Source of the DNA: Escherichia coli | GTDB taxonomy: Bacteria > Pseudomonadota > Gammaproteobacteria > Enterobacterales > Enterobacteriaceae | NCBI RefSeq assembly: GCF_003334305.1 | Contig: NZ_QOWS01000004.1 | Length of the DNA stretch: 64,000 nt | Reading direction: 5' to 3' (one strand) | Shown here: positions 1-3,000 of the stretch, one piece after another | How positions within the stretch are numbered: the first letter of the stretch is position 1 | Layout: each line of letters starts with the position of its first letter | Position numbers: made by a program

Positions 1-3000
1 TCGCCAGCGTATGAAACGCCTGGTATTCGAGGCCGGTCTGGATCCAGCCCATCTCAACGGCCCCCATGGTTTTACTTAACACATGCGCGCCAAAAGCGCC
101 CAGAGCCACAAAAATGAAGCCGCTAATGGCGGCGAAAATCAGCATAAAACGGCTGGTCATGGTCGTACCCTACGTAAATTATTGTTCATAACGAAAGCGG
201 AATTTTTCTTGTTCAGCAGCGGCTTTCGCCAGGATCCATTGGCGAAAGGCGGCTATTTTACCCAGTTCTGCCTGGCTGTCATGACAAACCAGATAAAAAG
301 CGTTTTTACTGACCAGAACATCATTAAACGGGCAAACAAGACGTCCGGCTTCAATTTCAGATTGCGCCATCACGTTATTTGCCAGCGCCACTCCCTGCCC
401 GTGAATAGCCGCTTGCAGCACCATGGCGCTATGACTAAAAATTGGCCCTTGCTGAACGTTGATATGATTTAACCCCAACTGTCGGGTATATGTCTGCCAG
501 TCACGGCGTGACGCATCATGTAATAACGTATGTTTAGCCAGATCTTCCGGGGTCTTCAAGGGTTTTTCGCCTGTCAGCAGTAGCGGCGAACACACCGGCA
601 ATAAATATTCGGCGTACAGTTTTTCCACCCGTAGCCCCGGCCAGTTGCCCCGACCATAAAATATCGCCACATCAACATCATCCGCCAGCTTATCTTCCTG
701 ACGATCAACCGCCTGGATTCGAACGTCAATTCCCGGATAAGCTGAATTAAAGCTGGAAAGTCGCGGAACCAACCAATGAATGGCGAAACTGGGGAGTAAA
801 CTGACCGTCAACGCCCCCTTGGCGCTACGGGCCTGGAGTTTACGCGTCGCTTCGGTTAATTGCGAAAATATCTCTTTGATATCGAGGAAATAGCTTTGCC
901 CTTCCTCGGTCAGCAGGAGTGAACGATTACGGCGGCGGAACAGTTTTAGCCCCAAAAAATCCTCAAGAGACTTGATTTGATGACTTACTGCGGCCTGGGT
1001 CACAAAAAGCTCTTCTGCTGCGCGAGTGAAACTTAAATGGCGTGCTGCGGCATCAAAAACTCGTAAGGCATTTAGCGGTGGTAATCGTTTAGACATGGCT
1101 TTTAAACTTTGATGTTAAATGAATTTAACAATTAGATCACACTATGTAACCTATTAGTTTTTTTAATCTGAGCCATTATAAATTGTCCGTTGAGCTTCTA
1201 CCAGCAAATACCTATAGTGGCGGCACTTCCTGAGCCGGAACGAAAAGTTTTATCGGAATGCGTGTTCTGGTGAACTTTTGGCTTACGGTTGTGATGTTGT
1301 GTTGTTGTGTTTGCAATTGGTCTGCGATTCAGACCATGGTAGCAAAGCTACCTTTTTTCACTTCCTGTACATTTACCCTGTCTGTCCATAGTGATTAATG
1401 TAGCACCGCCTAATTGCGGTGCTTTTTTTTACCTTGCGATCGCGAATTACTGATCCAGTTCGACCATCTCTTTCACGTCAGTACGGTTGATCTGCTGTTT
1501 GTTGCCATTAGCGTCTTTATACGAAATCATACCGGTATCGTTATCAGTCTGTGGTTTGCCGTCAGAGACGATGGTACGTCCGTCATTGGTGTGCATCACA
1601 TAGTTCGAACCGGAACAGGCGCTCAGGGCAAAAGTCAGCATACAGGCAGAAATAATTGCGGCAGTCTTTTTCATCATCTTCTCCTTAAAGCGATTAATAA
1701 ATCTTAATAGTATTGATTAACAGGCTAAAATTAACGCCTAACACTATTCAGCATATGTTACTTACGCGGCTTCGCCAGGATATCCAGATAATTCTGATGG
1801 TTAGCACTCTCCTTGTATCAAAGTGAATTTTGCGTCACGATCGGTGCATCAAGCCGAGGAGTACCATGAACGTTTTTAATCCCGCGCAGTTTCGCGCCCA
1901 GTTTCCCGCACTACAGGATGCGGGCGTCTATCTCGATAGCGCCGCGACCGCGCTTAAACCTGAAGCCGTGGTTGAAGCCACTCGACAGTTTTACAGCCTG
2001 AGCGCCGGAAACGTCCATCGCAGCCAGTTTGCCGAAGCCCAACGCCTGACCGCGCGTTATGAAGCTGCACGAGAGAAAGTGGCGCAATTACTGAATGCAC
2101 CGGATGATAAAACTATCGTCTGGACGCGCGGCACCACTGAATCCATCAACATGGTGGCACAATGCTATGCGCGTCCGCGTCTGCAACCGGGCGATGAGAT
2201 TATTGTCAGCGTGGCAGAACACCACGCTAACCTCGTCCCCTGGCTGATGGTCGCCCAACAAACTGGAGCCAAAGTGGTGAAATTGCCGCTTAATGCGCAG
2301 CGACTGCCGGATGTCGATTTGTTGCCAGAACTGATTACTCCCCGTAGTCGGATTCTGGCGTTGGGTCAGATGTCGAACGTTACTGGCGGTTGCCCGGATC
2401 TGGCGCGAGCGATTACCTTTGCTCATTCAGCCGGGATGGTGGTGATGGTTGATGGTGCTCAGGGGGCAGTGCATTTCCCCGCGGATGTTCAGCAACTGGA
2501 TATTGATTTCTATGCTTTTTCAGGTCACAAACTGTATGGCCCGACAGGTATCGGCGTGCTGTATGGTAAATCAGAACTGCTGGAGGCGATGTCGCCCTGG
2601 CTGGGCGGCGGCAAAATGGTTCACGAAGTGAGTTTTGACGGCTTCACGACTCAATCTGCGCCGTGGAAACTGGAAGCTGGAACGCCAAATGTCGCTGGTG
2701 TCATAGGATTAAGCGCGGCGCTGGAATGGCTGGCAGATTACGATATCAACCAGGCCGAAAGCTGGAGCCGTAGCTTAGCAACGCTGGCGGAAGATGCGCT
2801 GGCGAAACGTCCCGGCTTTCGTTCATTCCGCTGCCAGGATTCCAGCCTGCTGGCCTTTGATTTTGCTGGCGTTCATCATAGCGATATGGTGACGCTGCTG
2901 GCGGAGTACGGTATTGCCCTGCGGGCCGGGCAGCATTGCGCTCAGCCGCTACTGGCAGAATTAGGCGTAACCGGCACACTGCGCGCCTCTTTTGCGCCAT

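What the first reader, a model, noticed from the sequence alone, without database searches (positions are those of the whole stretch)
1097..1430. gcvA-gcvB divergent regulatory unit
GcvB sits divergent from its activator gene gcvA with a 128-bp shared control region. The sRNA sequence is fully readable, including the GU-rich seed and terminator.
Basis: established knowledge. Interest (0 to 1): 0.2.

Follow-up and report, generated by a model that had tools for sequence, protein, structure and literature searches.

The report
E. coli gcvA–gcvB divergent regulatory unit
This is the ordinary, well-studied E. coli locus where the regulator gene gcvA and the small RNA gene gcvB point away from each other; the RNA is base-for-base identical to that of strain K-12.

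Summary
Confirmed and already known. Rfam's GcvB model (RF00022) matches window 1225-1430 (+) end to end at 199 bits, against a gathering score of 42. The 206-nt RNA is identical to K-12 MG1655 gcvB (b4443). GcvA protein is identical too, and the control region differs at one base (1101). The locus is present in 5426 of 5426 complete E. coli genomes.

All expected parts are readable:
- a sigma-70-like gcvB promoter, whose -10 ends 6 nt before +1;
- the G/U-rich R1 seed, the R2 and R3 regions, the internal terminator t1 and the final terminator t2 with its U-run;
- an ATTA-n7-TAAT LysR-type box centred 65 bp upstream of gcvB +1, inside a strongly conserved block of about 48 bp that also holds a perfect TATAAT for gcvA on the other strand.

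In 99 of 99 genuine GcvB loci from other Enterobacterales and Pasteurellaceae with enough upstream DNA, gcvA sits divergently upstream. Three helices show compensatory changes.

Mechanism, taken from the literature: GcvA activates gcvB when glycine is high, and GcvA with GcvR represses it. GcvA represses its own gene. GcvB, with Hfq, represses many amino-acid transport and metabolism mRNAs.

Interest is low.

The parts
179..1096 (-). gcvA coding sequence (305 aa LysR-type regulator GcvA)
   Evidence: ORF. NCBIfam NF008352 GcvA 512.8 bits against a cut-off of 288. Protein identical to K-12 GcvA, with 11 synonymous DNA differences. Annotated gcvA in RefSeq records.
1097..1224 (.). 128-bp gcvA-gcvB intergenic control region. 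The part at about 1097-1168 is probably the gcvA 5' leader and is poorly conserved.
   Evidence: Coordinates. One difference from K-12 at 1101. Conservation profile over 94 loci. The gcvA TSS near 1168 is inferred from the position of the -10 hexamer and from my recollection of Wilson & Stauffer 1994, which I could not read here.
1149..1196 (.). Conserved operator block. It corresponds in size and position to the published 48-bp GcvA DNase I footprint and lies about -76 to -29 from gcvB +1.
   Evidence: Near-invariant columns at about 1150-1195 across 94 loci. A 48-bp footprint, with IR1 and IR2 centred at -65 and -43 from the gcvB TSS, is reported in PMC5002191. The exact footprint edges are inferred, not shown.
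1153..1167 (.). IR1: ATTAGTTTTTTTAAT, an ATTA-n7-TAAT dyad and T-N11-A LysR box. It contains CTAAT on the - strand. Its centre at 1160 is -65 from gcvB +1.
   Evidence: Read directly from the sequence. At least 98% conserved at most positions. The motif and the -65 position are as published (PMC5002191; PMC3658693).
1175..1180 (-). gcvA promoter -10 hexamer, a perfect TATAAT when read on the - strand. It overlaps the weaker GcvA site IR2 (centre about 1182).
   Evidence: Sequence. Strongly conserved. Assignment to the gcvA promoter is an inference. The consensus scan did not list it, because no adequate -35 accompanies it.
1190..1195 (+). gcvB promoter -35 (TTGAGC)
   Evidence: Promoter scan. 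Conserved. Directly abuts the operator block, as expected for a class II-like LysR activation site.
1213..1218 (+). gcvB promoter -10 (TATAGT), with a 17-bp spacer. It is followed by the G+C-rich discriminator GGCGGC and +1 at A1225.
   Evidence: Promoter scan. Conserved. The first base of the Rfam model and the K-12 annotation both place +1 at 1225.
1225..1430 (+). gcvB, the 206-nt GcvB small RNA
   Evidence: Rfam RF00022 199 bits, full length. 100% identical to K-12 b4443. Published numbering checks agree (PMC9299463, PMC3658540).
1231..1285 (+). SL1, the 5' stem-loop. Published as holding one of the two SroC sponge pairing sites.
   Evidence: MFE fold and Rfam consensus structure. A hairpin forms in each of the Enterobacterales lineages tested, with different inner-stem sequences. 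SroC pairing in SL1 and SL4 is stated in PMC9299463.
1289..1315 (+). R1, the single-stranded G/U-rich seed (includes Con-I). It pairs with C/A-rich sites of most target mRNAs.
   Evidence: Unpaired in the Rfam consensus structure. 1303-1314 is invariant in 28 diverse sequences. Function from PMC9299463, PMC3536696 and PMC3658540. The region edges are approximate.
1318..1336 (+). SL2 hairpin
   Evidence: All 4 counted pairs have compensatory double changes.
1338..1358 (+). SL3 / terminator t1 (GGTAGC-AAA-GCTACC followed by T6). An internal, partial terminator.
   Evidence: Terminator scan. 4 of 5 counted pairs have double changes. The published t1 centre at +121 is 1345 (PMC3658540).
1356..1369 (+). 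R2 / Con-II (TTTCACTTCCTGTA), a conserved single-stranded region
   Evidence: Invariant in all 28 diverse sequences. Role in cycA repression from PMC9299463 and PMC3658540.
1369..1401 (+). SL4, with the R3 seed in its large loop (G156, G160, C162 = 1380, 1384, 1386). Also the second SroC pairing site.
   Evidence: Rfam consensus structure. Published mutation positions match the bases (PMC9299463; PMC3536696).
1402..1430 (+). SL5 / terminator t2 (AGCACCGC-CTAATT-GCGGTGCT followed by a U-run). A Rho-independent terminator.
   Evidence: Terminator scan. Compensatory changes in 4 of 8 pairs. The 3' end at 1430 agrees with the K-12 annotation and with the primer description in PMC3658540. That the U-tail binds Hfq is general knowledge of Hfq-dependent sRNAs, not tested here.

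Best explanation
The region is the canonical Escherichia coli gcvA-gcvB divergent unit.

Transcriptional control. GcvA, a LysR-type regulator, binds an operator of about 48 bp between the two genes. The strong dyad ATTA-n7-TAAT is centred at -65 from gcvB +1, and a weaker site at about -43 abuts the gcvB -35. From this position GcvA activates gcvB transcription when glycine is abundant. Together with GcvR it represses gcvB when glycine is scarce. Because the same operator covers the gcvA promoter and its start site on the other strand, GcvA also represses its own gene.

The RNA. The 206-nt GcvB RNA ends at a Rho-independent terminator. It binds Hfq and uses its single-stranded G/U-rich R1 region, and also R3 and R2, to pair with C/A-rich sequences near the ribosome-binding sites of more than 50 mRNAs for amino-acid and peptide transport and metabolism. 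This blocks their translation. GcvB is in turn destroyed by RNase E after pairing with the SroC sponge RNA.

Shown here: the identity, boundaries, sequence parts, conservation, synteny and helix covariation.
Taken from the literature on the identical K-12 sequence, not tested here: GcvA/GcvR/glycine control, Hfq dependence, the targets and SroC.
For: - Rfam GcvB, full-length hit at 199 bits against 42.
- The RNA is 100% identical to K-12 gcvB, GcvA protein is identical, and the annotation geometry is the same 128 bp and 206 nt.
- GcvA scores 512.8 bits on NCBIfam NF008352 against a cut-off of 288.
- The locus is present in 5426 of 5426 complete E. coli genomes.
- The promoter hexamers and both terminators sit where expected.
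- My conservation profile shows a near-invariant block at 1150-1195, with the dyad centred at -65. This matches the published IR1 at -65, IR2 at -43 and the 48-bp footprint (PMC5002191).
- Divergent gcvA is found in 99 of 99 genuine GcvB loci with enough upstream DNA.
- Covariation: in SL2, t1 and t2, 12 of 17 pairs have double changes; over all 25 counted pairs, 92.7% of cells are paired against 27-57% when the partners are slid, and 0 of 500 shuffles reach the observed value.
- SL1 is maintained with different sequences in different lineages.
- Regulation and function come from PMC1557403, PMC3658540, PMC3536696, PMC4474525 and PMC9299463.
Against: Nothing substantive.
- No expression, binding or targeting was measured for this strain.
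- The promoter-like scan on its own is not significant (3 sites found against 1.6 expected).
- The gcvA transcription start and the footprint edges are inferred, because the primary papers (Wilson & Stauffer 1994; Wilson et al. 1995; Urbanowski et al. 2000) could not be read here.
- The role of t1 is unsettled in the literature. Fusion data indicate partial termination, but no short transcript was seen on Northern blots (PMC3658540).
Confidence: 0.97

Rival explanations
1. The stretch encodes a small protein, or is dual-function. The 46-aa ORF at 1258-1398 (+) inside gcvB would be translated.
For: The ORF exists mechanically. It is also 46 aa in Pluralibacter and 44 aa in Shimwellia.
Against: The frame is not conserved. 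The longest internal ORF changes position, frame and length (11-46 aa) across 28 relatives. Enterobacteriaceae differ from Yersinia, Serratia and others by a 7-nt indel inside R1. Conservation follows RNA helices and seeds, not codons. [quoted passage not shown]
Confidence: 0.01
2. The functional product is mainly a short RNA of about 130-134 nt ending at t1 (1338-1358), with the 3' half dispensable.
For: t1 is a credible terminator hairpin followed by T6. In Y. pestis fusions about 44% of the signal is lost across t1 (PMC1557403). A t1-up allele that makes a truncated RNA of about 134 nt still represses cycA in an Hfq-dependent way (PMC3658540).
Against: No short transcript was detected by Northern blot in E. 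coli or Salmonella (PMC3658540). R2, R3/SL4 and t2 are as strongly conserved as R1. R3 has validated targets and is a SroC site (PMC9299463, PMC3536696).
Confidence: 0.02
3. The Rfam hit is a degenerate or silent copy, a pseudo-sRNA that is no longer expressed or regulated.
For: None, beyond the fact that nothing was measured here. There is a single base change at 1101 relative to K-12.
Against: The RNA, both promoters and the operator are identical to K-12. The only difference lies 5 nt upstream of the gcvA ATG, in a poorly conserved stretch. The same allele is shared exactly by other complete genomes.
Confidence: 0.005

Closest known systems
E. coli K-12 MG1655 gcvB (b4443) with gcvA (b2808); Rfam RF00022 GcvB
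   Same: The 206-nt RNA and the GcvA protein are identical. The 128-bp spacing, promoters, operator, terminators and neighbours (ygdD, ygdI, csdA, csdE, tcdA) are the same.
   Different: One base in the control region (1101 is T here, A in K-12) and 11 synonymous changes in gcvA. No functional difference is expected.
Salmonella and Yersinia pestis GcvB
   Same: Same family and same divergent gcvA. Same R1, R2 and R3 regions and same two terminators. GcvA activation and GcvR repression have been shown to be interchangeable between Y. pestis and E. coli (PMC1557403).
   Different: Yersinia and most Enterobacterales outside the Enterobacteriaceae lack a 7-nt G/U repeat within R1 and have a different SL1 inner stem. 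The distance from the gcvA start to the R1 core is 201 bp in the three Yersinia loci, against 207-211 bp in most Enterobacteriaceae.
Other divergent LysR-regulator/target pairs, such as oxyR-oxyS and metR-metE
   Same: The regulator gene and its target are transcribed divergently from overlapping promoters. A T-N11-A box near -65 of the target promoter overlaps the regulator's own promoter, so one bound protein gives both activation and autorepression (PMC5002191). In oxyR-oxyS the target is likewise an Hfq-dependent small RNA (from my own knowledge).
   Different: The effector logic differs. GcvA needs the accessory protein GcvR, and glycine acts by breaking up the GcvA/GcvR complex (PMC3536696). 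Only two dyads are reported here, against three in the oxyR, ilvY and cynR group (PMC5002191).

Membership tests
GcvB sRNA (Rfam RF00022) | Covariance-model score at or above the curated gathering score, over the full model | tested here: met
   199 bits against 42, model positions 1-204 of 204, not truncated.
GcvB sRNA (Rfam RF00022) | Single-stranded G/U-rich R1 region containing Con-I | tested here: met
   Present at 1289-1315. The core 1303-1314 is invariant in 28 diverse sequences and unpaired in the Rfam consensus structure.
GcvB sRNA (Rfam RF00022) | Conserved R2/Con-II (CACUUCCUGU), and R3 in the SL4 loop | tested here: met
   1356-1369 is invariant. The published R3 bases G156, G160 and C162 are present at 1380, 1384 and 1386 (PMC9299463).
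GcvB sRNA (Rfam RF00022) | Helices supported by compensatory changes, and a Rho-independent terminator at the 3' end | tested here: met
   In SL2, t1 and t2, 12 of 17 pairs have double changes. Over all 25 counted pairs, 0 of 500 shuffles reach the observed values and the slid controls are far lower. The t2 stem is followed by a T-run.
GcvB sRNA (Rfam RF00022) | Divergent synteny with gcvA | tested here: met
   In the window, and in 99 of 99 genuine loci with enough upstream DNA.
GcvB sRNA (Rfam RF00022) | Hfq-dependent repression of amino-acid transporter mRNAs (dppA, oppA, cycA and others) | not testable with these tools
   Shown experimentally for the identical K-12 sequence (PMC9299463, PMC3658540). 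Not measured for this strain.
GcvA (LysR-type transcriptional regulator, NCBIfam NF008352) | Full-length match above the curated cut-off | tested here: met
   512.8 bits against 288, residues 1-304 on profile positions 1-304 of 305. 100% identical to K-12 GcvA.
LysR-type divergent activator/autorepressor architecture | T-N11-A dyad near -65 of the activated promoter, overlapping the regulator's own promoter | tested here: met
   ATTA-n7-TAAT at 1153-1167, centre -65 from gcvB +1. It lies within a conserved block that includes a - strand TATAAT at 1180-1175. Agrees with PMC5002191.
LysR-type divergent activator/autorepressor architecture | GcvA binding to the operator, and glycine/GcvR-dependent switching | not testable with these tools
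   From the literature only: DNase I footprint and genetics, as summarised in PMC5002191, PMC1557403 and PMC3536696.

The most novel reading that the evidence does not exclude
GcvB may have an undescribed layer of self-organisation.

(i) Its single-stranded 5' end, ACUUCCUG (1225-1232), exactly duplicates the core of R2 (1360-1367). It could act as an additional anti-Shine-Dalgarno-like seed in Enterobacterales.

(ii) The 5' part of R1 can pair with R2. RNAalifold predicts this helix, and it shows one G-C to A-U double change in Pasteurellaceae. Such pairing could partly mask R1 until Hfq or a target opens it. That might explain the published hints that sequence distal to t1, and R3, modulate repression through R1.

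Neither idea is demonstrated. The repeat is only mildly unexpected by chance. My own estimate, not a tool result, is about 0.07 exact 9-mer repeats expected in 206 nt. The pairing has a single covarying column confined to one clade, and four of its eight pairs never vary.
Probability: 0.08. Interest if true: 0.3.

Novelty: already known. Interest (0 to 1): 0.04.

Why it matters
It matters only as a correct annotation. [quoted passage not shown] The gcvA-gcvB pair is a textbook case of a LysR regulator that activates a divergent small-RNA gene while repressing itself.

This copy is identical to the experimentally characterised K-12 gene, so it adds no new biology.

One practical point: the RefSeq E. 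coli records I looked at, other than the K-12 reference record, list no feature under this RNA. The Rfam-based call therefore fills an annotation gap rather than making a discovery.

Tried and rejected
- **Primary papers.** I tried to read Wilson & Stauffer 1994 (PMC205440), Wilson et al. 1995 (PMC177269) and Sharma et al. 2007 (PMC2045133). None is held. The gcvA TSS and footprint edges therefore rest on secondary descriptions (PMC5002191) and on inference from the sequence.
- **Coding reading.** I considered the 46-aa ORF at 1258-1398 and rejected it because the frame is not conserved.
- **Odd loci from the pattern scan.** Five loci were candidates for GcvB outside gcvA synteny: Ignavibacteriales L044, Paenibacillus L049, Flavobacteriales L080, L119 and Borreliella L051. 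None has an Rfam GcvB hit, so they are chance pattern matches.
- **SL1 covariation.** RNAalifold on the MAFFT alignment could not recover SL1, because indels misalign it. I folded each sequence separately instead. I did not build a covariance model of my own, because the Rfam model already settles membership.
- **Hrs13.** The sub-threshold Rfam match to Hrs13 at 1359-1430 (28 bits against 52) overlaps the GcvB 3' part. I did not take it as a separate gene.
- **Literature on the 5' motif.** A search for 'ACUUCC' together with GcvB found nothing. This does not show that the motif is undescribed, because many papers are not held.
- **Malformed queries.** Four literature calls failed on term format and gave no information.
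Full report
**Observation**

The window from 1097 to 1430 was read directly and scanned against Rfam at a permissive E-value threshold, then again over the whole 64 kb at gathering thresholds. 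The GcvB model RF00022 matches 1225-1430 on the + strand at 199 bits (gathering score 42, E about 1e-47). The match covers model positions 1-204 of 204 and is not truncated.

The ORF list shows a 305-aa ORF at 179-1096 on the - strand. This scores 512.8 bits on NCBIfam NF008352 'transcriptional regulator GcvA' against a cut-off of 288. The interval between the gcvA start codon (1096) and the first base of the RNA (1225) is 1097-1224, which is exactly 128 bp.

**Identity with the characterised gene**

Megablast finds the first 1800 bases of the window in 5426 of 5426 complete E. coli genomes, at 99% identity or more in 5366 of them. The finding's own span behaves the same way.

In the K-12 MG1655 reference record, gcvA is at 2941650-2942567 (-) and the ncRNA gcvB (b4443) is at 2942696-2942901 (+). 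That is the same 128-bp gap and the same 206-nt RNA.

A base-by-base comparison gives these results:
- gcvB has no differences from K-12.
- The control region has one difference: 1101 is T in the window and A in K-12, 5 nt upstream of the gcvA ATG.
- gcvA has 11 differences, all synonymous, so the GcvA protein is identical.

The neighbours are those of E. coli: ygdD, ygdI, csdA, csdE and tcdA.

**Boundaries checked against published numbering**

With +1 at 1225, three independent checks agree:
- The published R3 point mutants G156C, G160C and C162G (PMC9299463) fall on g, g and c at 1380, 1384 and 1386.
- The published centre of terminator t1 at +121 (PMC3658540) is 1345, the middle of the hairpin at 1338-1352 found by the terminator scan.
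- The reverse primer described as starting 44 bp after the gcvB transcription stop (PMC3658540) begins at 1474, which puts the stop at 1430.

The published centre of t2 (+189/190) is within one base of the centre of the stem at 1402-1423.

**Anatomy of the RNA**

| Part | Window coordinates | Notes |
|---|---|---|
| 5' single-stranded end | 1225-1230 | |
| SL1 | 1231-1285 | |
| R1 (G/U-rich) | about 1289-1315 | |
| SL2 | 1318-1336 | |
| SL3 / t1 | 1338-1352, then T6 | |
| R2 / Con-II | 1356-1369 | |
| SL4 | 1369-1401 | R3 lies in its loop |
| SL5 / t2 | 1402-1423, T-run to 1430 | |

The MFE is -62.1 kcal/mol, against -47.1 ± 4.1 for dinucleotide shuffles (z = -3.6).

**Anatomy of the control region**

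The consensus scan lists a + strand promoter: TTGAGC (1190-1195), a 17-bp spacer, then TATAGT (1213-1218). Its -10 ends 6 nt before +1. The scan alone is not significant (3 sites against 1.6 expected), so I looked for independent support.

A pattern scan of one genome per species returned 120 loci. After orienting them and searching for GcvA by tblastn, they divide as follows:
- 99 have a GcvA homologue on the opposite strand directly upstream.
- 17 hold fewer than 400 bp of upstream DNA.
- 4 have no GcvA.

Those 4, plus the Borreliella locus (which is one of the 17), have no Rfam GcvB hit and are chance pattern matches. The five test loci from Yersinia, Morganella, Plesiomonas, Haemophilus and Pasteurella do have one, at 85-188 bits. 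So synteny holds in 99 of 99 informative genuine loci. The remaining 16 short loci could not be assessed.

A conservation profile over 94 of these loci, in window coordinates, shows three things:
- The gcvA-proximal part (1097-1148) is poorly conserved.
- A near-invariant block lies at about 1150-1195.
- The spacer at 1197-1203 is variable, and the gcvB -10 is conserved.

Inside the block, ATTAGTTTTTTTAAT (1153-1167) is an ATTA-n7-TAAT dyad and a T-N11-A LysR box. Its centre at 1160 is -65 from gcvB +1. On the - strand, 1180-1175 reads a perfect TATAAT.

This matches the published description. GcvA protects a 48-bp sequence in the gcvA-gcvB intergenic region. The motifs are 5'-CTAAT-3' and 5'-ATTA-n7-TAAT-3'. 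IR1 and IR2 are centred at -65 and -43 from the gcvB start, and the promoters overlap (PMC5002191; consensus also in PMC3658693).

From memory, and not read here, Wilson & Stauffer 1994 placed the gcvA start about 72 nt upstream of the ATG. That would be about 1168, which is 7 nt downstream of the TATAAT. The footprint would then span about 1149-1196, coinciding with the conserved block.

So the '128-bp shared control region' is more precisely a gcvA leader of about 72 nt, plus an operator and promoter core in which the two start sites lie about 57 bp apart.

**Structure support from relatives**

Twenty-eight sequences, each less than 93% identical to the others, were aligned. They run from Enterobacteriaceae to Pasteurellaceae.
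- R1 core nt 79-90 and nt 132-145 (R2) are invariant.
- RNAalifold recovers SL2, t1 and t2 with compensatory changes.
- In SL2, t1 and t2, 12 of 17 pairs have changes on both sides.
- Over all 25 counted pairs, including the 8 long-range R1:R2 pairs described under side observations, 92.7% of cells are paired, against 27-57% when the partners are slid by 1-3 columns. None of 500 shuffles reaches the observed pairing or covariation score.
- SL1 is misaligned by a sequence-only aligner. Folded separately, the Enterobacterales sequences each form a 5' hairpin with a different inner stem, for example CGGAAU/GUUCUG, UUAGUAU/GUACUGAA, GGGUGUC/GACGCCC and GCAGUA/UACUGC.

**Not coding**

The mechanical 46-aa ORF at 1258-1398 is not conserved in frame, position or length across the 28 sequences, where the longest ORFs run from 11 to 46 aa. 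A 7-nt indel lies inside it. The literature states that the RNAs are not translated (PMC1557403).

**Mechanism**

What is shown here: the identity, boundaries, parts, synteny, conservation and covariation.

What is taken from experiments on the identical K-12 sequence or close relatives:
- gcvB::lacZ is activated about 400-fold by gcvA. It is constitutive in a gcvR mutant, induced by glycine and repressed by purines (PMC1557403; PMC3658540).
- The GcvA/GcvR complex represses, and glycine disrupts it. GcvA represses its own synthesis. Lrp represses gcvB (PMC3536696).
- GcvB needs Hfq. It uses R1 for most targets, R3 for phoP, lrp and others, and R2 for cycA. It directly represses more than 50 genes for amino-acid transport and metabolism (PMC9299463).
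- SroC, derived from the gltI 3' UTR, pairs with SL1 and SL4 and triggers RNase E decay of GcvB (PMC4474525; PMC9299463).

What is inferred: the operator position explains both activation of gcvB (dyad at -65, weaker site abutting the -35) and autorepression (the same sites cover the gcvA -10 and start).

**Comparison and novelty**

This is the K-12 gene itself, not merely a member of the family. Every sequence-level defining feature of GcvB, of GcvA and of the LysR divergent architecture was tested and met. The functional features cannot be tested with these tools. Novelty: already known. Interest: very low.

**Side observations**

1. The window has a single initiator tRNA-Met gene (5754-5830), where K-12 has metZ-metW-metV. 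Only about 226 of 5426 complete genomes match the single-copy arrangement contiguously.
2. K-12 has about 162 bp more between tcdA and mltA.
3. The GcvB 5' end duplicates the R2 core. CACTTCCTG occurs at 1224-1232 and 1359-1367. No held paper mentions this.
4. RNAalifold proposes an R1:R2 long-range helix. Its only covarying pair is confined to Pasteurellaceae, and four of its eight pairs never vary, so it remains unsupported.
5. OmrA and OmrB lie at 34250-34534.

Noticed in passing
window 5754-5830 (+): There is only one initiator tRNA-Met(CAU) gene here, whereas K-12 has three tandem copies (metZ, metW, metV). This is a 220-bp, two-unit contraction. Only about 226 of 5426 complete E. coli genomes match this single-copy arrangement as one contiguous stretch, so it is a minority state. 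That count is an approximation based on BLAST coverage.
   Followed up: partly
window about 4393-4412, between tcdA and mltA: K-12 carries about 162 bp more here than the window. A 20-bp sequence at the junction matches both sides of the K-12 extra segment. This is probably a difference in REP/BIME-type repeat copy number, but I did not examine it.
   Followed up: no
window 1224-1232 and 1359-1367: There is an exact 9-nt direct repeat, CACTTCCTG. The single-stranded 5' end of GcvB (ACUUCCUG) duplicates the core of the conserved R2/Con-II region. Both copies are conserved in Enterobacterales. The 5' copy is absent in Pasteurellaceae. No held paper pairs 'ACUUCC' with GcvB. It could be a redundant anti-SD-like seed, or it could be coincidence.
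   Followed up: partly
window about 1297-1308 with about 1360-1372 (alignment A1 columns 93-104 with 169-181): RNAalifold and the MFE fold pair part of R1 with R2. Of the 8 pairs, 4 never vary. One shows a G-C to A-U double change, but only in the six Pasteurellaceae sequences, which is likely a single event. There is not enough evidence for a real helix, and the Rfam consensus structure leaves both regions unpaired.
   Followed up: partly
window 1101: There is a single-base difference from K-12 in the control region (T here, A in K-12), 5 nt upstream of the gcvA ATG in a poorly conserved stretch. In the evenly spaced listing, only the first 2 of 20 rows are 100% identical to the window. On my estimate, about 5-10% of genomes share the exact 334-bp sequence.
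   Followed up: partly
window 1219-1224: The gcvB discriminator between the -10 and +1 is G+C-rich (GGCGGC). This is the kind of discriminator associated with growth-rate or ppGpp-sensitive promoters, and it would fit GcvB being most abundant in fast growth in rich medium. This is an inference only.
   Followed up: no
window 1359-1430 (+): There is a sub-threshold Rfam match to Hrs13, 'Hfq-regulated sRNA 13' (28.1 bits against a gathering score of 52). It overlaps the 3' part of GcvB. This suggests that the Hrs13 family may partly overlap with GcvB 3' regions. I did not pursue it.
   Followed up: no
window 1225-1430 in RefSeq records (e.g. NZ_CP028767.1): Apart from the K-12 reference record, the RefSeq E. 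coli records I examined list no annotated feature under the gcvB match. The feature column reads 'none' in all 20 rows, and the A7 record has no ncRNA entry. The RNA therefore goes unannotated in many genomes despite being universal.
   Followed up: no
window 1431-1447: ygdI (1447-1677, -) converges on gcvB, and only 16 bp separate the GcvB 3' end from the ygdI stop codon. Read on the - strand, the t2 hairpin is preceded by an A-run but is not followed by a U-run. It is therefore at best a weak terminator for ygdI.
   Followed up: no
window 34250-34337 and 34453-34534 (-): There are two tandem OmrA/OmrB-family small RNA genes (Rfam RF00079, 96.6 and 86.1 bits), as expected for E. coli.
   Followed up: no
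window 3526-3570 (+): There is a partial, sub-threshold match to naRNA4 (a REP-derived nucleoid-associated RNA) between csdE and tcdA (29.4 bits against 59.5). It is most likely an ordinary REP element.
   Followed up: no
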